Below are positions 1 through 35,078 of a stretch of DNA of 64,000 nt, one piece after another. Source of the DNA: the human T2T-CHM13v2.0 reference genome, Homo sapiens. Each line of letters begins with the position of its first letter. The stretch's first letter is position 1. Below the pieces are notes generated by a model. It was not told the DNA's origin, ran no database searches, and saw nothing but the letters and a program-made list of their open reading frames with translations. The DNA lies in assembly GCF_009914755.1 (NCBI RefSeq), contig NC_060934.1; one strand, given 5' to 3'. Made by a program: the position numbers and the translations under genes.

Positions 1-254
1 GGTCCGCAGCGCCCGCGGCCGCCTCCCACACCTCAGTGCCCCCGCCCCCCGGGGCTCCCCAGTCTCCGCGCCTCCTCTCTGCTCCTCTCCCCCGGCCTCC
101 GGCAGCCGGGAGCCGCGCGCGGACCCTCGGAGACCATGTCCTGACTGAGGGGAGAGGGCGGAGGCGGCAGCAGCGGGGCGGGCGGCGGCGCGAAGGGAGG
201 CGGAGAGGGGCCGGGCTCGACTCGTAGCCGCGGGCTGCGCGGGGAGTCGCCGCT

Positions 255-288
<34 letters not shown>

Positions 289-345
289 AGCGCCCGTCGG
301 ACGGGGAGGAGGAGCAGGAGCTGGAGGAGGAGCCGCCGCCGCCAG
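1..345 (+). other. ZRANB1: Distal, mainly non-coding first exon (TSS not determinable; donor after 345)
   Basis: Donor CCAG|GTAACC at 345/346 inside the CpG island, same strand as the coding exons. The start coordinate is only the window edge. Confidence 0.65.
255..287 (+). repeat. (GCC)11 trinucleotide repeat in the first exon
   Basis: Direct count: 11 perfect GCC units, preceded by GCC GCT; a further (GCC)4 at 332-343. Confidence 0.97.
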
Positions 346-474
346 GTAACCGGGCCCCGGGGGGCGCCCCACCGCGGCCTGCCGGGCCCCTCGCTCCCAG
401 GCGGCGCCCAGGTTGCCGGGCCTCACGGGCTGTCCGCCCGCCCGGCGCCCCAGGGGCGACCGCGTCGCAGGCGC

Positions 475-565
475 GGGGAGGGCAGGGGCCCGGGCCGCCG
501 CTGTCGGCGCTTCCATCTTGGGCGCTCCGGTTGCGGGGACGGCCCGGGGGCTGTGGGAGGGCGGG
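475..565 (+). other. Two canonical G-quadruplex motifs at the start of intron 1
   Basis: GGGG-A-GGG-CA-GGGG-CCC-GGG (475-494) and GGGGG-CTGT-GGG-A-GGG-C-GGG (546-565) fit the G3+N1-7 pattern. Confidence 0.6.
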
Positions 566-1265
566 TCCGCCCAGCTTGTTTACCGACCGCCGGCCGCCCG
601 TGGCTGGACGCGGTGCCGGTCCCACCGCCGCTCTTCCGCCAGATTTCCCCACAACTTCTTTTCCTGCCGGAGACGGATCGGCGAGTGGGGTTTCGCTCCC
701 ACTCCGCAATAGGCCGTAAACACTTGGGTCCATCGCCACAAGTTGGTTCTGGTGTCTCCAAACTTGTATTTCAGTCCCTCGGCCGCTTGCTTTCCACCTC
801 CTGCGGTGGCCTCCAGTTGCCATTTGTAGGAAAATAAAGGTGGGGGACGACGAGGCGGGTGGGGAGGAGGAGCTGGAGCTAGTGGAAAGATTCGTCTACC
901 CCTCCTGCTCGCAGTAACGAGTGTTCAGTGCAAGGATCTGTTTTTTCTCTGCTATGGTTTGGTGCGGGTCATTTCACAGACAAAAGAACTGTAGTGAATG
1001 CTGGCATTAAGCGCAAGGGACAGGCAGTTTAGGTTAAGCCTGGAAGTTTGAACCGGCCCATTATCTTTGAGATACACTGGTGTTTTGAAACTCTCTTGCT
1101 GAGGATATTGTATTTCAGTCAGTTGATTACCCTTTTCTGTAACTCCGTAGACTATCGATTTAAGCGCCGCCCCATCTTACCAGTATTTTGGTTTCACCGT
1201 GTTTATGATGATGTTAATAAATCTAATGTGCAAAAATACCGTTTTAGGAACACAATTGGAGATAA

Positions 1266-19999: not shown

Positions 20000-22372
<2,373 letters not shown>

Positions 22373-23417
22373 TATTATCTAATATAAGGCACATCTCAAA
22401 ACTCTTGAGCTTGGTTTTGGTATTGCTTAGTTACCTGGATTTTCAGAGGTTGGTGGGCTAATTAGGCAGCTGTCTGTCCATTATTTTACCAGGCATTTAT
22501 GACAGTGATTATTTTTTATGACAGTTTTTTGTTTGTTTTTTAAATCAGCCTGGACATTTAAATATATTGTGCCAGCATATTAGTTACATGAAGATTAGCT
22601 AAGATAACATAAGGTTACGGGCTGTTTAGTTGCACCTACAAACATAGTAAGACTTATCAAAACAAGTATGGATTTTGAATGTGAATATTTTAAAAGATAT
22701 ATTGAAATTACTTAGAGTAGCCCTGGATATATGTTCATTATGGCATTTATCTTGTTAATAAGTTTCTACATGCTCATTTTAATTTCCAGTAGCATGAGCA
22801 AGTAACTTATATTTCATTCCCGAGAAACTAAAAGAATCTGCCTAAAGAGTATGAAAATTGCCATTAAATCTGTATTGTCTACTTTCTGGATGGTTATATC
22901 ATTATAGTTCTCTGCTCTTCCACACATTTTTGGGCTGCTATCAGTTTGTAAGTAATCATTATACAAACTAAATTTAAAAATTTAAACAAGATAATTTTAT
23001 ATTACTTGGATCAGGGAAAAAAATGCAGTTGCTGAAGGTGGTTTCATAGCTAAATATAAGCAATTATTTTGCTTTTTCTACTTTTTTGGATTTTATCATC
23101 TTTTCCCTTTTAGTAATAGAGTAATACAGGTAGGAATTAACTTAGCACTGCCAAATTAATAGTAATATTAGAACTGTGTACACAGCACAGGGTTAAGGTT
23201 ATATAGAAAAATGTCTCATCCATGTTTAATTTGGCTGACCAGCCCAGTTGATTAGCCAATTTTATTGTTTTGTTAAATTAAAATTCTAAATATAGTTGTC
23301 CATTGTTAAAATAAGTGAGTAGGGTTAAAATAGAGAATTGATAAAAATAAAGCCTTAAAAATCTTTTAGCTAAAGTAGCAGGCTTCAAGTGAAATTCAGT
23401 TTTGGTCTCCTTTACAG

Positions 23418-23591
23418 GAATAGCTATTCAGTCAGACAGAACCACTTATCACGTTTTGCAGTATCTCCTGAGGAAGTCAGAATTCTGAGCCAGCATGAAG
23501 ACGGAATCTTGTCTTTGATCTGATTTGCAAACCGTACTTTTATTCTAATCATGTGCAAGGTGGAGGTTATAGCGTGGGAACTAAAATCTTA
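23418..23591 (+). other. ZRANB1: Probable upstream exon (174 nt) of a long ZRANB1 isoform
   Basis: Acceptor ttttggtctcctttacag|G at 23417/23418 and donor TTA|GTAAGT at 23591/23592, in unique non-repeat sequence. Phase-compatible with the acceptor at 25500/25501. Confidence 0.75.
23551..23591 (+). CDS. ZRANB1: Start of a 26-aa N-terminal extension (MCKVEVIAWELKS-Y-FLPDTAHFKKCT) fused to the canonical MSERG start
   Basis: ATG at 23551 gives 13 codons plus TA. Joined to C25501 this makes TAC, then 12 stop-free codons to ATG 25538. 708+26=734 aa matches a predicted long isoform as I recall it (unverified). Confidence 0.7.
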
Positions 23592-23738
23592 GTAAGTGTG
23601 GTTTTTATTTTAGCTATTAAGTAGTATACTTTCTTATAGTGATTTTTTTTTTCTTCTTAGCAGAGTTCACACTATAAATAGTGTATGGACTTGGCAGGCA
23701 GGAACATAATACAGTATACTTCAAAAGTGAAAGATTTA

Positions 23739-24078
<340 letters not shown>

Positions 24079-24414
24079 ATTTAACCCTCTAGGTTCAGGA
24101 AAAATCCCTGAGAAAGAGAGAGCAAAGCTTCTATACTCTGCCTAGGATTTCTTTCTCTTTCCGGGTGAAAAATAGGTGTTGGGATGATACTGAGTTGATA
24201 AAAGTATTTAGGAAAAGTGGCCAGTGTCTAAATTCAAGCCATTAAAAAAAAAAAATTAAATTTGTTATGTAAGTTGCTTCATTTATGAATTAGTTGCCAT
24301 TAAATTATGAAGTCTTTCTTCATTATAGTGTAGTGTTAGCCCATTGTTGAATCCTAGAAATCTTTTAAGTAGTGTGAATATCTTTTAAATATGAATTGGA
24401 TTTTTTGGGGGGCA

Positions 24415-24693
24415 GGGGATGGAGTCTCACTCTGTCACCCAGGCTAGAGTGCAGTGGTGCGATCTTAGCTCACTGCAACCTCTGCCTGCCGGGTTCAAGC
24501 AGTTCTCTGCCTCAGCCTCCTGAGTAGCTGGGATTACAGGCACCTACCACCATGCACGGCTAATTTTTGTATTTTTATAGAGACGGGGCTTTACCATCTT
24601 GGCCAGGCTGGTCTTGAACTCCTGACCTTGTGATCTACCCGCCTCAGCCTCCCAAAATGCTGGGATTATAGGCTTGAGCTACTGCCCCCGGCC
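24415..24693 (-). mobile_element. AluS
   Basis: Antisense dimer flanked by an atgaatt(g/a)gatttt TSD. Confidence 0.9.
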
Positions 24694-25500
24694 ATGAATT
24701 AGATTTTGAGTATATTTTAAATATTCAAAATTTAAAATATTTTAATTATGAACATTCACAATTATATTGGAATGATTATGCTACTGGTTATTTCAGTGAC
24801 CTTCCACAGATTTAATTTTCCCCAGTACAGTCTTCTTTTTTTTACTCCAGATAGAACTAGATTTTGAGGCTACAGATTATCAAGGAACTACCTATTTCAT
24901 AATGTTACTTTGTTAATTGTAGCCATTACTTCTCAACATGTTTCTTTACTACCTGTGCTAATTAAGAACAGTGGATAATTAGCATTTTAAGTTGCTTTTC
25001 TCCCTTAGCGAGAATGATAAAATAGACGTTGTTTGATCTTCTGAATTCATGAATCATAATCTGTGTTCATAATTTGAGAATGGTTATGTGTTTAAGCTAT
25101 TTTTTAGTTTGTGTTGTTTCCTCTACCTTTGTCTCTTTAAACTATTGGTTACTTTTCTAAATTGATGTGATGGCCTCCCTGAAATTAAACATTTCTATTA
25201 GTGGCTTCCCGTTAATCTCATCCTTCTTAGATCAAACCTCGTTATATCTCCTGCCTATCTCTTTTGCATTCCAAAGTTCAGTTTTATTAAATCCCAGGGT
25301 CTAAGATTTTTTCTTTGAGAATTTATCTCCAGTGTTTCTATGGAAATTAAAAAAGAAAATTAGGATAATTCAATGTCGAAATGTTGCATGCATCTTTTGA
25401 GAAATTTATATTTTGTAGGTTGAAGGACTTGCTTTTTGGGCAGCGTATTTTTGGAGGTGGAATGTAGTTATTTTAATAACCATGTCCTAATTATTTATAG

Positions 25501-25537
25501 CTTCCTGCCTGACACAGCTCACTTCAAGAAGTGCACA
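25501..25537 (+). other. ZRANB1: 5' part of the AUG exon (acceptor at 25500/25501): 5'UTR of the canonical form, coding in the long form
   Basis: gtcctaattatttatag|C with a CTAAT branch-point-like motif; open frame up to ATG 25538. Confidence 0.8.
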
Positions 25538-26351
25538 ATGTCAGAACGTGGAATTAAGTGGGCTTGTGAATATTGTACGTATGAAAACTGGCCATCTGCA
25601 ATCAAGTGTACTATGTGTCGTGCCCAAAGACCTAGTGGAACAATTATTACAGAAGATCCATTTAAAAGTGGTTCAAGTGATGTTGGTAGAGATTGGGATC
25701 CTTCCAGCACCGAAGGAGGAAGTAGTCCTTTGATATGTCCAGACTCTAGTGCAAGACCAAGGGTGAAATCTTCGTATAGCATGGAAAATGCAAATAAGTG
25801 GTCATGCCACATGTGTACATATTTGAACTGGCCAAGAGCAATCAGATGTACCCAGTGCTTATCCCAACGTAGGACCAGGAGTCCTACAGAATCTCCTCAG
25901 TCCTCAGGATCTGGCTCAAGACCAGTTGCTTTTTCTGTTGATCCTTGTGAGGAATACAATGATAGAAATAAACTGAACACTAGGACACAGCACTGGACTT
26001 GCTCTGTTTGCACATATGAAAACTGGGCCAAGGCTAAAAGATGTGTTGTTTGTGATCATCCCAGACCTAATAACATTGAAGCAATAGAATTGGCAGAGAC
26101 TGAAGAGGCTTCTTCAATAATAAATGAGCAAGACAGAGCTCGATGGAGGGGAAGTTGCAGTAGTGGTAATAGCCAAAGGAGATCACCTCCTGCTACGAAG
26201 CGGGACTCTGAAGTGAAAATGGATTTTCAGAGGATTGAATTGGCTGGTGCTGTGGGAAGCAAGGAGGAACTTGAAGTAGACTTTAAAAAACTAAAGCAAA
26301 TTAAAAACAGGATGAAAAAGACTGATTGGCTCTTCCTCAATGCTTGTGTGG
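25538..26351 (+). CDS. ZRANB1: TRABID coding exon, aa 1-271: three RanBP2/Npl4-type zinc fingers (NZF1-3) and start of AnkUBD
   Basis: MSERGIKWACEYCTYENWPSAIKCTMC..., WSCHMCTYLN...CTQC and WTCSVCTYEN...CVVC are three W-x-C-x2-C-TY-x-N-x6-C-x2-C motifs. 814 nt ending at GTGG|GTAAGT (phase 1). Confidence 0.98.
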
Positions 26352-26417
26352 GTAAGTTTCTGTATTCTGCATTTTTTGCGTGGGATGGGAAAAGGTAGTA
26401 AAAATGATATGAAAAGA

Positions 26418-26551
26418 GCTGGGTGCGCTGACACACGTTTGTGGTCTTAGCCACTTGCTTGAAACCAGGAGTTTGAGGCTGTAGTATGCCATGATCGGTC
26501 TGTGAATAGCACTTGCACTCCAGCTTGGGTAACATAGTGAGACTGTGTCTC
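26418..26551 (+). mobile_element. FAM / 7SL-derived fossil Alu monomer, followed by (TG)n(TA)n at ~26574-26602
   Basis: Retains the 7SL-specific gatc..ctgtgaatagc..ctgcactccagc segment that dimeric Alus lack. Confidence 0.75.
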
Positions 26552-27549
26552 CACGCACATGCAAAAATGTGAGTGTGTGTGTGTGTGTGTGTATATATAT
26601 ATGCGCAAAGTCACTAGCATTTGATTCATTCAGCACGATAGCTGTACTTTCAAGTATGCATACATAAAAATTTGTGTATTTGTGATCTTGTCGTAACTTT
26701 GTACTAAATTGCCCACAATTAATTGTGTTCATGTCTCTCCATTACTGGGGGCAGTGGAAACGTTTAAGTTAAAGCAAAGTTTTTACACATCAGCAGTAAA
26801 ATATATACCTGGACTTTAAAACTGCTACTCTGTTTATTGTAACAAGATGTAACTGAGGAACACCAGCTGCTGTTTCCAAGTATTTGTAAACAGTGTGAGC
26901 ATCTTGTGATGATAGAAGCTTTAGTCAGATGTTAAAAATACCACAAAAATGTGTGACTCCAAGAAGTTGAACAAACATATTGACCTTGAAAATACTGGTG
27001 TTAATTTAACATGAATGTCATGTAGTAAATGTTTGCAAACTTTATGGAACTGATTACATGTAGCCAGCTGATTCCATACTTCAAGTTATGGTTCATATGT
27101 ATTGTGACATTTTCCTCAGGAAATGCTGTTAAAGGACAGAGACATAGGAGAGCAGAGTTTTTCTTCAGTTCTTGACCTTGTGAGTTAATTGTGATGTAAT
27201 TCACAAAAGCAGTGACTTGAGTCTTCAGTATTTTTTTTTTGAGTAGATTAGATGTTTGATTTTTATTAAATTATTTGGATGGGCTGCTTGCTTTGACATT
27301 TGGTCTTATGAGGGAAATTTTGAATGATTACTAAGTTTAAACTTTGTGTGGAACAATAGCTAAGCTTTAACTATACCTTAGCTGTATGTTTTCCCTCAGT
27401 ACCAATTTCTTTTATTTATCCCTCTGGGTACAGCCCAAGAATATGGAAAGTTTAGGTGTATGAACCTGTGAGTCCTAGGAATTGATTTCCAAGAAATCGT
27501 GAGTTTTAAAATTAAATTATATATATCATTCCCCCCCCCCCCGCCCCAA

Positions 27550-27836
27550 GATGGGATCTCACTCTGTCACCCAGGCTAGAGGGCAGTGATGCAATCATGG
27601 CTCACTGCAGCCTCAACCTCCTGGGTTCAAGTGACCTGCCATCTCAGCCTCCCCAGTAGCTGGGACTCCCCATTAGCATGTACCACTATGCCCTGCTATT
27701 GTTTTAAATTATTATTTGTAAAGATGGGGGTCTACCTATGTTGCCCAGGATGGTCTTGAACTCCTGGGCTCAAGCGATTCTCCCACCTCAGCCTCCTAAA
27801 GTGTTGGGATTATAGGCATAATTTGCTGTGCCCAGC
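27550..27836 (-). mobile_element. AluJ
   Basis: atcatggctcactgcagcctcaacctcctggg J-type diagnostics. Confidence 0.85.
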
Positions 27837-28846
27837 TGAAATCCTGAGTTTTCAATTTTAGCTTTGTTCTGGCAAAAAAGAATATCCCAGCAGATGAATC
27901 CTTCTGACCTCCAGACTTAGTAGGCACTTAGCAAGTCTTAGTTCTAGTTTCCTCCCATCCTGAGGATGAGGGGATGAAAACATACCGGGCTATCTTCTGT
28001 CTGTGTTGTCCCATTTTATTCCTCTGATTTTTCTGCTCCAAATTGAGGGGCAACATACAGTATGATTGTCAGTTAAAAAAATTTAAACAGGAGATACAAA
28101 AGGGTTTTGTTATTAGTTTCCTTAGAGATCAAATTGATTTAACATAAAAATTCACCGTTTTGCAAGTGAACAACTCATTTGGCATTTAGTGCATTCACAT
28201 TGTGTAACCACTACCTCTGTGTTGTTCCAGAACATTTTCATCATCCCAAAAGGAAACTATGTACCCATTAAGCAGTTACTGCCCCCTACCCCTACCCGCT
28301 AACCCTTGATAACTGCCAGTCTGCTTTTGGTGTCTGTGGATTTACCTATTCTGGATATTCATATAAATGGAATCTTTACATATCTGTGAGCTTTTATGTT
28401 GGGTGTGATTGTCTTTTAATTGCTTGTATGCCTTTGGAACAGTCTTAAAATCATTTTTTTTTTTTTTTTTTTTTTTTTTTTCAGGGAGTAGTGTACTATG
28501 AATACTTGGACTACAAGGTGGTGTTATAGTACATGTAGGTTTATAGATGAAAATGAACTAGACTTCATTGTGACGGTTCTTAACCTCACAGTGAAGGTCA
28601 CTAAACCTCACTAAAGGTCATAGAATCCTTTAGGAATCAGGGCTTCATTTCAACCCCCGGTTGCTTCAAGTCAGTGGATCTCAGGATAAGAACACCTGAT
28701 TTGAAATATTTTCTTTCCTTGAAACACACAAGTTAGATGAATCAACATGTTTGTCTTTATGACATTATTTCTTCTTGGTCCTGCCTTTTTCTACATATCC
28801 TTACTACTTTTGACTAGACGACTAGCCATCCTTGTACCTCTTTGCA

Positions 28847-29492
<646 letters not shown>

Positions 29493-30589
29493 GTGGAACA
29501 AAAACTTCTACCAATAGGACCAGTATTGGATTTGACGTTGTTTTATTTATAAAACGATTTGTCATTAAGTTGCTGTTTCTACCTGCAAAGTTTCTAGATT
29601 CTTAGGGGCAAGGGTTGATTGTATTTGGTTCTTGGTAATGTGGACTATGTCTTTCCTATTGGCAAATAATTTTTACTATTAACTCTACAATGTCATTCTG
29701 AACTGTTATACGTAAGGTTATAATTATAGGCCTGTTTCTATGGGATAGCCATATTCTGATGTGTAAACATAACTGAAATATGTTAAATACTTTTTTTAAA
29801 CTTGTTTACATTGTGTTGGGTTAATTTAAAAAAAGGCTTGAGCAGTAAGACTAACAGAAGTTCACATGTACTCAAAATTAATCTTTACGTCCCTTTTCTG
29901 CCTGCCTTATGTTCCCCAGATTTCATTAGATACAGTGTATTTTGGGTTATTGATGTTAAGTGTTTTTTAAAAAATACATCTCTAAAGTAGTATATACACT
30001 GAGTATAAAATGTGAGACTTTTCCATTTAAAGTTGGAAAAAAATTGCAACCTCAGGTCAGCTTTGTAGCTGATAAACTAGGAATGAGGAAGATTCAGTTG
30101 TTGAGAGGGCAGATGTCAACTAACACATCAGCAGTATCGAGCAAACATATTGACATAGCTGTTGGGTGTTAAGTTTCACATAAGTCATATTATCTTATGT
30201 GGTGAGAGGATGTTGGGGACAGCTGTGCCAAAACCTGATATCAGTAGTAGAGCCTGAGGTTGAGAACCAGGGTGGTAAAGGTAGAGGTGTGAATGTAAAT
30301 GTACAGTTGTCTCTGGAATGTCTGCAGTTGGTACTAGATGTTTTTAGGTACATCAGGTTTTTAGGGCGGTCATGTGAGCACTCACCATAGACTGCTTTTC
30401 TCACTGGGTAGACAATAATGTATCTAGAGAATAGAGCAGCACTACCTAATGCCCTGCTTTTGTTCTGCTATTGTATTGAATCAGTTGCCTTATGAAATTG
30501 CACTTCAATTTGTGTACATAGATACGTCCTTAAAAAGACACAGGGTTAGATAAGAACACCATATTAAATCTGTGCTGTAATGTGTATTC

Positions 30590-31920
30590 CTGAATCCTAG
30601 ACTCATATATCCAGCTGCCTATTCAGCATCTTTCCTGGAGTGTTTAAAAACTCAAGCTCATTTCAAGCTCAGTAATGCTAAAACAGAACTGATCTCTCCT
30701 TCAAATCTATTTTTTCCCAGGCTCTCATCTTGGTTGATGGCAAATTTCTCATTCCATTGCTTGTGCCAAAAGCCTTGGCCCTCCTTGATTCTTCTTTCTC
30801 TTATGCCCCACTTCTATTTCTGAGAAGATTCTTTGGCTCTACCTTCAAAATATATCTGTACTCTGACCACTTCTCACTATTCTTGTCCAAACCATGATCT
30901 ACCCTTGCCTTTGCCCTCCGTACAATCTGCTGTCATCAGAGGAGCTAATTCTTCTCAGAACCCTCTAGTGATCACCTGTTTTACTTGGATTAAAAGCCAG
31001 AGTCCCTCAAAAACTCTACAAGGCCATCTACATGCTCTGTATTGCACACTTCAGCTTCCCTCCATATACTTTTGACCCTTGAATAACACAGGTCTGAACT
31101 GTGCGCGTCCACTTATACGTGAGTTTTCTACCAGCTCTGCCACCCCTGAGACAGCAAGAACAATGCCTCTTCTTCCTCCTCCCCCTCCTCAGCCTACTCA
31201 AGGTGAAGATGATGATGATGAAGACCTTTATGATGAGCCACTTTGACTTAATGAGTTGGTAAATGTATTTTCTCTTCCTTATGATTTTCTTAATAACATT
31301 TTCTTTTCTCTAATGTATTACAAGAATACAGTGTATAATACATATACAAATATGTGTTCGACTGTTTATGCTATTAGTAAGGCTTCCGGTCAACAGTAGG
31401 CTATCAGTATTTTGGGGGGAGTTAAAAGTTATACATGGATTTTCTACTGTGTGGGAGATTGGTCCCCCTAATCTCCATGTTGTTCAAGGGCCAAATATAG
31501 TTTATCTCTGAACTAATCTGTTTTCCACCTTTTCCATTTCATTCCAGCCACTCTTGCCACCTTTTTTTTTTTTCCTATAAATAAGCCTCAAGCCTTTTAC
31601 TTGCTGTTTGCTCTGCCTGGATTGCTCTCCACCTTCGCTTCTTTTCTCATGTATTGCCTTCTCAATGAGGTCCTCCATGACTGCCGTATCTAAAATTTCA
31701 TCCCTGTCCATTATCCCTCCCCACAGCATTAATTTTCTTCATAACACTTCTAATATGCTTCATCATCTTGTTTATTATTTGTCTCTCTCTACTCTAGAAT
31801 TTAAGCTTCCTGAGGGCCAGTAATTTTATGTTTTGTTCAAAGCTGTATCTTAGTATGTACAACAGTGCCTGCTACATACATACTAGGCACTCAGGTATTT
31901 TTATATCAATGAACGAATGA
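30590..31920. mobile_element. L2 element split by a Tigger2a insertion
   Basis: tagactcatatatccagctgcct... and ...agtgcctg...taggcactc...aatgaacgaatgaat (L2 3' end) lie on either side of the Tigger. Confidence 0.7.
31069..31497. mobile_element. Tigger2a (MER28-like) MITE
   Basis: Degenerate TIRs c..ttgacccttgaa(t)aaca / tgttgttcaagggccaa with flanking TA; internal cctcctcagcctactcaa..gtgaagatga; about 430 bp. Confidence 0.85.
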
Positions 31921-32447
31921 ATATTTTTGGGAACTAGGGTCTGGGCAAACCTTTATCCTACTCCTCCTATGAATTTCTAGATTCTTTGCCTGCTTCCTAG
32001 CTCTCTATGTTTTTCAATAGTTGGGGCTCAACCCAGGAGAGCCAGTTTTACTTCTCACTGGTTGTCAGGAAGACTGAGGTAAGTAGTGGGTATGAAAGGG
32101 TCTTACAGGAAAGGGTATAGAGGCTTCAGTTTATCACCAGGCAGTCTATGGACATGAAAAGTCTAAAGTCAGGTTTATGTTTAATTTCTCTACCTCCCTA
32201 CTTTCACTCATGGCAATATTTGTTTTTTCAAAAAAATCATTCTATGTGTTTGCTATAACTATCAAATGAGATTTTTACTTGAAATATTTTATTCAGTTGT
32301 CATTGGACCTGCTGCTTCCTAGTTGGCGTTTATCTTACTTCCTAAACAATAGCTGCATCTTTCTTAAGTTTAGGAGCTGAGATTTGGTTGGGGCTGTTGA
32401 AGGTATAGGGGGAAAAAAATCAAACTTAAGTAACAAGTTCACATTGA

Positions 32448-35078
<2,631 letters not shown>

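What the first reader, a model, noticed from the sequence alone, without database searches (positions are those of the whole stretch)
25501..26351. AUG-exon circle predicted to encode a 348-aa NZF-only TRABID with a novel 77-aa tail
Seen: the 851-nt exon holds the start codon and all three NZFs and is bracketed by opposite-strand Alu-family pairs: 24415-24693 (-) with FAM 26418-26551 (+), and 23739-24078 (+) with 27550-27836 (-). Since 851 is not a multiple of 3, back-splicing 26351 to 25501 gives ...NACV then G|CT and enters a shifted frame open for 77 codons: ASCLTQLTSRSAQCQN-VELSGLVNIVRMKTGHLQSSVLCVVPKDLVEQLLQKIHLKVVQVMLVEIGILPAPKEEVVL, stop at 25731-25733. This frame is the track's ORF 25548..25733. 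The product would be 271+77=348 aa, keeping the ubiquitin-chain-binding fingers but lacking an intact AnkUBD and the OTU. Established: inverted Alus promote back-splicing, and long AUG-containing exons circularise often. I recall a single-exon ZRANB1 circRNA of this size in catalogues (unverified). Inference: if translated, it would be a catalytically dead K29/K33-chain reader opposing TRABID; circularisation also removes the AUG from the linear mRNA. Most circRNAs are not translated, so the protein is a hypothesis.
Basis: partly seen in the sequence, partly recalled or inferred. Interest (0 to 1): 0.8.

Follow-up and report, generated by a model that had tools for sequence, protein, structure and literature searches.

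The report
Known ZRANB1 start-codon circular RNA
This exon is the already catalogued circular RNA of the ZRANB1 (TRABID) gene; the 348-residue reading frame on the circle exists on paper, but nothing seen here indicates that a protein is made from it.

Summary
The sequence arithmetic is correct. The stretch 25501-26351 is 851 nt, bounded by an AG acceptor and a GTAAGT donor. The ATG is at 25538. It is followed by 271 codons plus 1 nt, and back-splicing then enters the +1 frame for 77 codons, ending at TGA 25731-25733.

The circle is not new. It is hsa_circ_0000268, also called circZRANB1(1). It is 851 nt in hg19, reported in human, mouse and rat, among the ten most abundant circles in rat, and dependent on RBM15.

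The protein remains a paper construct.
- The frame is open at near-chance frequency (P 0.08-0.10).
- The tail matches no Pfam family, folds poorly and is hydrophobic.
- In one of two non-human +1-frame sequences that run past the stop, the tail changes as fast as the unread continuation.
- No searched paper reports translation.

Inverted Alus do flank the exon, but the strongest pairing lies within one intron, and rodents, which lack Alus, also make the circle.

The best fit is a typical noncoding "AUG circRNA" (PMC6487579). The finding is ordinary and already known.

The parts
25501..26351 (+). 851-nt start-codon exon that forms the single-exon circle hsa_circ_0000268 / circZRANB1(1)
   Evidence: Length and splice motifs. 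The size equals the catalogued hg19 interval. The internal acceptor of annotated exon 1 is described in PMC6846653.
25499..25500 (+). AG of the 3' splice site used for forward splicing from upstream exons and for back-splicing
   Evidence: Database proteins P0004, P0008 and P0010 read across joins onto 25501.
26352..26357 (+). GTAAGT 5' splice site (back-splice donor)
   Evidence: hub annotation.
25538..26350 (+). TRABID residues 1-271: three NZF fingers plus the first 26 of 97 AnkUBD profile positions
   Evidence: PDB chains 5af6_F and 4s1z_F cover residues 1-33, and 3zrh_A starts at residue 245.
25503..25733 (+). +1-frame stretch that would be read after the back-splice (76 codons plus TGA; the junction codon adds one more)
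   Evidence: No Pfam family. Mean pLDDT 55.6. GRAVY +0.50, rising to +0.86 in the last 30 residues.
23739..24078 (+). Alu-like element in the upstream intron, + orientation
   Evidence: Rfam SRP-like matches at 23740-23857 and 23876-24030 (+).
24414..24693 (-). Alu-like element in the upstream intron, - orientation; its best partner is the Alu at 23739-24078 in the same intron
   Evidence: Inverted repeats I5, I6, I10 and I17. Duplex -445.6 kcal/mol.
26418..26551 (+).
   Evidence: No Rfam match. blastn 64-78% identity to other Alus, + orientation.
27546..27836 (-). Alu-like element in the downstream intron, - orientation
28861..29134 (-). Alu-like element in the downstream intron, - orientation
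29184..29467 (+). Alu-like element in the downstream intron, + orientation; best across-exon partner of 24414-24693
   Evidence: 80.7% over 264 nt. -424.7 kcal/mol.
23418..23591 (+). Candidate alternative upstream exon. The donor 23591|23592 and the ATG at 23551 are shown; the acceptor at 23417|23418 is inferred
   Evidence: It fits the second circle with a junction about 3 kb upstream of the donor in PMC6846653.
300..345 (+). 3' end of the CpG-island non-coding first exon (donor cag|gtaacc at 345|346). The 5' end of this exon was not determined; the start given marks only the part that aligned
   Evidence: GC fraction 0.83 in 1-500. P0004 aligns across the computed 345|25501 join.

Best explanation
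The 851-nt exon 25501-26351 is the known, abundant and conserved single-exon circular RNA of ZRANB1 (hsa_circ_0000268, circZRANB1(1)). It is a typical 'AUG circRNA'.

It forms by back-splicing the donor at 26351 to the internal acceptor at 25501. This exon sits between two long introns: about 25 kb to the CpG-island first exon and 23 kb to the next coding exon. Exonic RBM15 binding promotes the back-splice. The flanking inverted Alus are at most an accessory in primates.

Because the circle carries the host start codon and its length is not a multiple of three, it necessarily holds a truncated host ORF with a frame-shifted tail. Here that is 271 + 77 codons. This ORF is most likely incidental. 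The circle acts, if at all, as RNA, or through competition with linear splicing of the start-codon exon. It does not yield a functional NZF-only TRABID.

Shown here or in print: the anatomy, the identity of the circle, its conservation and its RBM15 dependence. Inferred: that the ORF is not productively used.
For: Identity of the circle:
- It is 851 nt with canonical sites.
- Its size equals hsa_circ_0000268, chr10:126631025-126631876.
- PMC6846653 describes a back-splice from the exon-1 donor to an acceptor inside annotated exon 1 that is also used by unannotated first exons.
- I find two such upstream exons whose joins onto 25501 are read by database proteins.

Conservation and abundance:
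- The circle is reported as conserved in human, mouse and rat, and as RNase R resistant in rat retina.
- In rat it is among the ten most abundant circles and exceeds the linear RNA in most tissues.

Biogenesis:
- Blocking RBM15 sites in the exon with dCasRx or ASOs lowers circZRANB1(1) with little effect on the linear RNA.
- The class description in PMC6487579 is of AUG circRNAs that are abundant, conserved, flanked by long introns, Alu-independent and without evidence of translation.

The ORF looks incidental:
- The frame is open to codon 65 in 7.6-10.2% of synonymous re-codings of the same protein, and only 5 single synonymous changes would close it.
- The tail has no Pfam family and a mean pLDDT of 55.6.
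- The tail is hydrophobic: GRAVY +0.50 against -0.86 for residues 1-271.
- In P0094 the tail part differs from human at 7 of 50 positions, against 20 of 124 beyond the stop (P = 0.82). In P0003 it differs at 8 of 59 aligned positions, by my count from the alignment.

Base rate: in rat hippocampus 123 of 8350 circles (1.47%) were polysome-associated.
Against: - The circle is cytoplasmic in glial cells and very abundant, so ribosomes can reach it.
- The ATG has A at -3.
- DRACH motifs number 24, against about 15 expected by a crude composition estimate.
- One of the two non-human +1-frame sequences that run past the stop (P0005) has fewer changes in the tail part: 3 of 50 against 23 of 124, P = 0.036. 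This was a post hoc test.
- All 4 mammal-like relatives that read through the 5'UTR keep its length in phase with human, so the same tail frame would be entered. This sample is biased, because only in-phase cases can be seen.
- The +1 frame is open over the tail region in every non-human sequence recovered. These were found because they are open ORFs, so this too is biased.
- I could not see TransCirc, riboCIRC or circAtlas, nor most supplementary tables, where ribosome or mass-spectrometry evidence for this circle might be listed.
Confidence: 0.8

Rival explanations
1. The circle is translated from the host AUG into a stable 348-residue NZF-only TRABID. This protein binds K29/K33 ubiquitin chains without cleaving them and so opposes full-length TRABID.
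For: - The ORF exists and crosses the junction.
- The three NZFs are intact and NZF1 is identical to the solved chains.
- The circle is abundant and cytoplasmic.
- Many circles of the same design are reported as translated, for example circGlis3 giving Glis3-348aa (listing only).
- P0005 shows fewer changes in the tail part.
Against: - No report in six literature searches, and no entry in two supplementary proteome sets.
- The openness of the frame is within chance.
- P0094 and P0003 show no constraint on the tail.
- The tail is hydrophobic and poorly folded. By recalled work on the mitigation of noncoding translation, such tails favour degradation.
- The class as a whole showed no evidence of translation.
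Confidence: 0.05
2. Ribosomes occasionally translate the circle, but the product is rapidly degraded noise with no function.
For: - A host AUG with A at -3 lies on an abundant cytoplasmic circle.
- 14.28% of rat hippocampal circles co-sediment with monosomes.
- The tail is hydrophobic at its C-terminus, with GRAVY +0.86 over the last 30 residues.
Against: There is no direct evidence for ribosome loading of this particular circle. Cap-independent initiation on it is undemonstrated.
Confidence: 0.12
3. Pairing of the flanking inverted Alus is the main cause of circularisation in human.
For: - Opposite-strand Alus lie in both introns.
- There are 45 complementary HSPs between the 10 kb upstream and the 10 kb downstream.
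- Across-exon duplexes reach -424.7 kcal/mol, against about -144 for shuffled partners.
Against: - The strongest duplex (-445.6) joins the two upstream Alus to each other, only about 340 nt apart. The downstream Alus also pair among themselves (-367.9, -359.3).
- The circle is abundant in rat and catalogued in mouse. Alus are primate-specific (passage in PMC6487579).
- RBM15 site blocking reduces the circle.
Confidence: 0.2

Closest known systems
hsa_circ_0000268 / cZRANB1 / circZRANB1(1)
   Same: Same gene, single exon, 851 nt, uses the exon-1 donor and an acceptor inside annotated exon 1.
   Different: Nothing differs in the RNA. Print treats it as a miR-217 sponge or as an RBM15-dependent circle, not as a coding template.
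AUG circRNAs (Stagsted et al. 2019, PMC6487579)
   Same: Contains the annotated start codon, is abundant, is conserved in rodents, and has a long downstream intron and a long upstream intron from the CpG-island exon.
   Different: This locus does have inverted Alus near the exon: 807 nt upstream, and 67 nt (degenerate fragment) or 1195 nt downstream. It is therefore not 'devoid' of them. ZRANB1 is not named in that paper's main text (0 occurrences).
Reported protein-coding circles with a truncated host protein plus a unique tail (for example circZNF609, circ-beta-catenin 370 aa, circGlis3 348 aa)
   Same: The host AUG is used, the ORF crosses the back-splice junction, and the tail is frame-shifted and unique.
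   Different: Those have claimed experimental support. Here there is none. All names except Glis3-348aa (listing) are recalled and come from no call.
'mRNA trap' circles that compete with linear splicing of the start-codon exon (Formin, circMbl; recalled)
   Same: The start-codon exon is removed into a circle. In rat the circle exceeds the linear RNA in most tissues.
   Different: No exon-skipped ZRANB1 transcript or dosage effect has been shown. RBM15-site blocking lowered the circle with little effect on the linear RNA.

Membership tests
Exonic circular RNA hsa_circ_0000268 | Canonical AG...GT sites bound the circularised exon | tested here: met
   tttatag|CTTCC at 25500|25501 and GTGTGG|gtaagt at 26351|26352.
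Exonic circular RNA hsa_circ_0000268 | Size and place equal the catalogued circle | tested here: met
   851 nt here. The hg19 interval 126631025-126631876 is also 851 nt. The description matches the internal acceptor. A lift-over to the T2T assembly could not be run.
Exonic circular RNA hsa_circ_0000268 | Back-splice reads and RNase R resistance | not testable with these tools
   From print only: rat retina RNase R and Sanger sequencing, read counts in human keratinocyte stem cells, qPCR in human cells.
AUG circRNA class | Contains the annotated start codon | tested here: met
   ATG at 25538 inside 25501-26351.
AUG circRNA class | Long flanking introns (>6,500 nt in PMC6487579) | tested here: met
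   Downstream intron 26352-49634 is 23.3 kb (hub annotation). Upstream intron 346-25500 is 25.2 kb from the CpG-island exon, but only 1.9 kb from the alternative exon that ends at 23591.
AUG circRNA class | No proximal inverted Alu pair | tested here: not met
   Inverted Alu-like elements lie 807 and 1423 nt upstream and 67 (degenerate), 1195 and 2833 nt downstream.
Translated circRNA | ORF from an AUG that crosses the back-splice junction | tested here: met
   348 codons, crossing the junction, stop at 25731.
Translated circRNA | Ribosome footprints or polysome association at the junction | not testable with these tools
   No such report. The rat polysome re-analysis names other circles in its text. 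Its figure and supplements were not seen.
Translated circRNA | Junction or tail peptides by mass spectrometry | tested here: inconclusive
   ZRANB1 and its coordinates are absent from the held supplements of PMC11245404 (1 file) and PMC9242994 (4 files).
Translated circRNA | Evolutionary constraint on the unique tail | tested here: inconclusive
   P0094: 7 of 50 against 20 of 124 (P = 0.82). P0005: 3 of 50 against 23 of 124 (P = 0.036). Both are biased samples from unnamed species, and no DNA was available.
Alu-driven circularisation | Across-exon pairing outcompetes within-intron pairing | tested here: not met
   The best within-intron duplex is -445.6 kcal/mol, against -424.7 for the best across-exon duplex.
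Alu-driven circularisation | The circle is absent where Alus are absent | tested here: not met
   The circle is catalogued in mouse, validated in rat and among the ten most abundant in rat. This evidence comes from print.
TRABID NZF ubiquitin-binding module | Three RanBP2-type zinc fingers, with AnkUBD and OTU lacking | tested here: met
   3 Zn_ribbon_RanBP stretches; AnkUBD profile positions 1-26 of 97 only; no OTU.

The most novel reading that the evidence does not exclude
circZRANB1 outnumbers its linear mRNA in most rat tissues. On this reading it is translated from the host AUG into a 39-kDa NZF-only TRABID with a 77-residue hydrophobic tail. That protein would be a catalytically dead reader of K29/K33 ubiquitin chains that buffers or opposes the deubiquitinase. 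Circularisation would at the same time withhold the start-codon exon from the linear mRNA.
Probability: 0.05. Interest if true: 0.6.

Novelty: already known. Interest (0 to 1): 0.2.

Why it matters
If the protein existed, it would add an endogenous, circle-encoded antagonist to the regulation of atypical ubiquitin chains. It would also be a clean case for the disputed idea that AUG circRNAs are translated.

As things stand, the value of this check is mostly negative. It shows that a correct and attractive piece of sequence arithmetic describes a catalogued circle, and that the ORF carries no signal beyond what any start-codon circle of length 3n+2 would show.

Two practical points follow:
- The RefSeq exon-1 model hides the real acceptor at 25501 and two upstream first exons.
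- The proposed test 'does the frame stay open in orthologues?' has little power here, because only 5 single synonymous changes could close it.

Tried and rejected
1. Orthologous DNA. The search for related loci with residues 1-271 found nothing usable. In genome contigs, 30 pattern matches gave 0 confirmed relatives. In viral contigs there were no matches. A direct codon-level conservation test was therefore impossible.

2. P0004 as evidence that the 5'UTR length differs by 1 nt in another species, which would send the back-splice into a different frame. I first read it that way and then rejected it. P0004 changes frame after the UTR part. By my reading of its C-terminus against the human frames, it changes frame again near its end. 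It is therefore more likely a processed pseudogene or a faulty assembly than an orthologue. It still shows the 345|25501 splice.

3. P0005 and P0094 as evidence that the +1 frame is open for 179 codons in other species. Rejected. They carry W at 3 of the 4 positions where human has TGA. The main-frame residues that force an A at the third codon position are kept in 47 of 49 (LI) and 49 of 49 (LN in YLNW) relatives. These ORFs were probably called with TGA read as W.

4. An endless rolling-circle ORF is excluded. The three frames of the exon hold 0, 11 and 36 stops, and 851 mod 3 = 2. A two-exon circle of 1025 nt is also not a multiple of 3.

5. Rfam microRNA matches in the flanks (mir-1268, mir-3135 and others) are all below their gathering scores and lie inside Alus. 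They are not genes.

6. P0006, P0007 (weak matches in long proteins) and P0095 were not examined further.

Full report
**Observation**

The stretch 25501-26351 is 851 nt (851 mod 3 = 2). It is preceded by a pyrimidine-rich tract ending in AG and followed by GTAAGT. The ATG is at 25538 with A at -3. The exon holds 814 nt of coding sequence, which is 271 codons plus one base.

Reading from 25503 gives 76 sense codons and TGA at 25731-25733. With the junction codon, a walk round the circle gives 348 codons and a predicted mass of 39.1 kDa.

Pfam finds three Zn_ribbon_RanBP stretches and AnkUBD profile positions 1-26 of 97. It finds no OTU domain and nothing in the tail at E<=1. PDB chains 5af6_F and 4s1z_F match residues 1-33, and 3zrh_A starts at residue 245. 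That these entries are K33 and K29 diubiquitin complexes is my recollection; the search did not show it.

The three frames of the exon hold 0, 11 and 36 stops, so no endless ORF exists.

**Is 25501 a real exon boundary?**

RefSeq draws exon 1 from 25167, so 25501 lies inside it. PMC6846653 (passage) reports that ZRANB1 has two unannotated first exons. They splice to an acceptor inside annotated exon 1, and one circle uses that same acceptor with the exon-1 donor.

I find both upstream exons.
- The window starts in a CpG island, with GC fraction 0.83 in 1-500. It has a donor cag|gtaacc at 345|346. Database protein P0004 aligns in one frame across the computed 345|25501 join, but only from the exon onward on unspliced DNA.
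- A second exon ends at 23591|gtaagt and carries an ATG at 23551, in frame with the ZRANB1 start through 25501. P0008 (79 member sequences) and P0010 (named by its source as a seal ZRANB1 isoform X1) read across that join.

**The circle is known**

- PMC5945597 (passages) gives cZRANB1 as hsa_circ_0000268 at chr10:126631025-126631876, which is 851 nt. [quoted passage not shown]
- The same interval appears in a table in PMC5798954 and in two further papers seen only as listings.
- PMC13759317 (passages) shows that blocking RBM15 sites in 'ZRANB1 exon 1' with dCasRx or ASOs lowers circZRANB1(1) with little effect on the linear RNA. It also reports that the RBM15 effect on circles persisted in METTL3-depleted cells.
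- PMC11961807 (passages) ranks Zranb1 circles among the ten most abundant in rat, with more circle than linear RNA in most tissues.

**Flanking repeats**

Rfam SRP-like matches serve here as a proxy for Alus; all are below the gathering score. They place elements at 23740-24030 (+), 24414-24692 (-), 27546-27836 (-), 28861-29134 (-) and 29184-29467 (+).

The 'FAM' at 26418-26551 has no Rfam match. It has 8 non-self blastn hits of 64-78% identity to other Alus, and these fix its orientation as +.

Between the 10 kb upstream and the 10 kb downstream there are 45 complementary HSPs.

| Pair | Location | Energy (kcal/mol) |
|---|---|---|
| 23739-24078 with 24414-24693 | within upstream intron, about 340 nt apart | -445.6 |
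| 24414-24693 with 29184-29467 | across exon (best) | -424.7 |
| 28861-29134 with 29184-29467 | within downstream intron | -367.9 |
| 27546-27836 with 29184-29467 | within downstream intron | -359.3 |

The strongest pairing therefore competes with circularisation. Taken together with the rodent circles and the RBM15 result, this makes Alu pairing at most a contributor.

PMC6487579 (passages) defines AUG circRNAs as abundant, conserved, flanked by long introns and Alu-independent. Here the downstream intron is 23.3 kb and the upstream intron is 25.2 kb from the CpG-island exon.

**Is the open tail frame more than chance?**

I re-coded the first 271 codons with synonymous codons and asked how often the +1 frame stays open to codon 65. 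The answers were 10.2% with uniform codon choice, 9.4% with the gene's own usage, and 7.6% with permutation of the exon's own codons.

The 12 codons from the 5'UTR are not covered by this null. Only 5 single synonymous substitutions in codons 1-64, and 6 of 108 substitutions in 25503-25538, would close the frame. 'The frame stays open in orthologues' is therefore a weak test.

**Conservation**

No orthologous DNA could be fetched. Searching the tail against protein databases returned ORFs called on unnamed, evidently vertebrate contigs. These were found because they are open ORFs, so they cannot show that the frame is usually open.

- P0003 (61 aa) ends at the same stop as human.
- P0004 (113 aa) changes frame relative to the human gene and looks like a pseudogene or a faulty assembly. 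I do not use it for UTR length.
- P0005 and P0094 (179 aa each) carry W at 3 of the 4 human TGA positions. The main-frame residues that force a stop-compatible codon there are kept in 47 of 49 and 49 of 49 relatives. These ORFs were probably called with TGA read as W, so the real stop is probably kept.

P0005 and P0094 allow one useful comparison: the rate of change in the tail part against the part beyond the stop, which nothing would read.
- P0094: 7 of 50 against 20 of 124, P = 0.82.
- P0005: 3 of 50 against 23 of 124, P = 0.036. This test was post hoc.
- P0003 differs from human at 8 of 59 aligned tail positions, by my count from the alignment.

There is no consistent constraint on the tail.

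Among 49 stored main-frame relatives, out of 86 found, 4 read through the homologous 5'UTR. All 4 keep 12 codons plus one base before the ATG, as in human. Only in-phase cases can be seen this way.

**The tail as a protein**

A single-sequence AlphaFold2 model has mean pLDDT 55.6 and two predicted helices. GRAVY is +0.50 for the tail and +0.86 for its last 30 residues, against -0.86 for residues 1-271. From recalled work on the mitigation of noncoding translation, hydrophobic C-termini favour degradation. This was not checked here.

**Is translation in print?**

No searched paper reports it.
- Six searches found no paper whose listing or viewed passages report translation of this circle.
- The four specific names tried had 0 occurrences.
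- ZRANB1 and its hg19 and presumed hg38 coordinates (the hg38 numbers are from memory) are absent from the held supplements of PMC11245404 and PMC9242994.
A catalogue entry may therefore exist.

Base rates are low. In rat hippocampus 123 of 8350 circles were polysome-associated. The text names other circles among the top ones; the figure was not seen. PMC6487579 reports no evidence for translation of AUG circRNAs.

**Verdict**

The circle is already known. The coding interpretation is unsupported but not excluded.

I put the noncoding AUG-circRNA reading at about 0.8, a functional NZF-only protein at about 0.05, and unproductive trace translation at about 0.12.

Noticed in passing
window 23418-23591 (ATG 23551, donor 23591|23592): An upstream alternative exon carries an ATG in frame with the ZRANB1 start through the 25501 acceptor. 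It would add 26 residues to the N-terminus. Database proteins P0008 (79 members) and P0010 (seal isoform X1) read the same extension. It is not in the RefSeq model the hub supplied for human.
   Followed up: partly
window 23418-23591 plus 25501-26351: The only strong acceptor in 23250-23550 is AG at 23416-23417, 2934 nt from the donor at 26351. This fits the second ZRANB1 circle with a junction about 3 kb upstream described in PMC6846653. Such a two-exon circle would be 1025 nt, with a 320-codon ORF from ATG 23551 and a 23-codon tail. The acceptor is inferred.
   Followed up: partly
window 1-700, donor 345|346: A CpG island (GC fraction 0.83 in 1-500) holds a non-coding first exon ending at cag|gtaacc. 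P0004 reads across its join to 25501. The RefSeq exon-1 start at 25167 lies inside the intron of these transcripts.
   Followed up: partly
proteins P0005 and P0094 (homologous to window 25581-26117, +1 frame): These public-database ORFs from vertebrate-like contigs run 179 residues in the +1 frame of ZRANB1, with W at three human TGA positions. They were probably gene calls made under a TGA=W code on host DNA.
   Followed up: yes
protein P0004: This ORF joins the CpG-island exon to the 25501 exon and then shifts frame relative to the human gene, once clearly and by eye a second time near its end. It looks like a processed pseudogene or a faulty assembly of a non-human ZRANB1 transcript.
   Followed up: partly
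window 20000-33000: There are many sub-threshold Rfam microRNA matches (mir-1268, mir-3135, mir-1972, mir-1285 and others). They all lie inside Alu elements and all score below their gathering thresholds, so they are Alu-derived look-alikes and not genes.
   Followed up: no
window 26567-26600: A (GT)n/(TA)n microsatellite lies directly after the degenerate Alu fragment, about 215 nt downstream of the donor.
   Followed up: no
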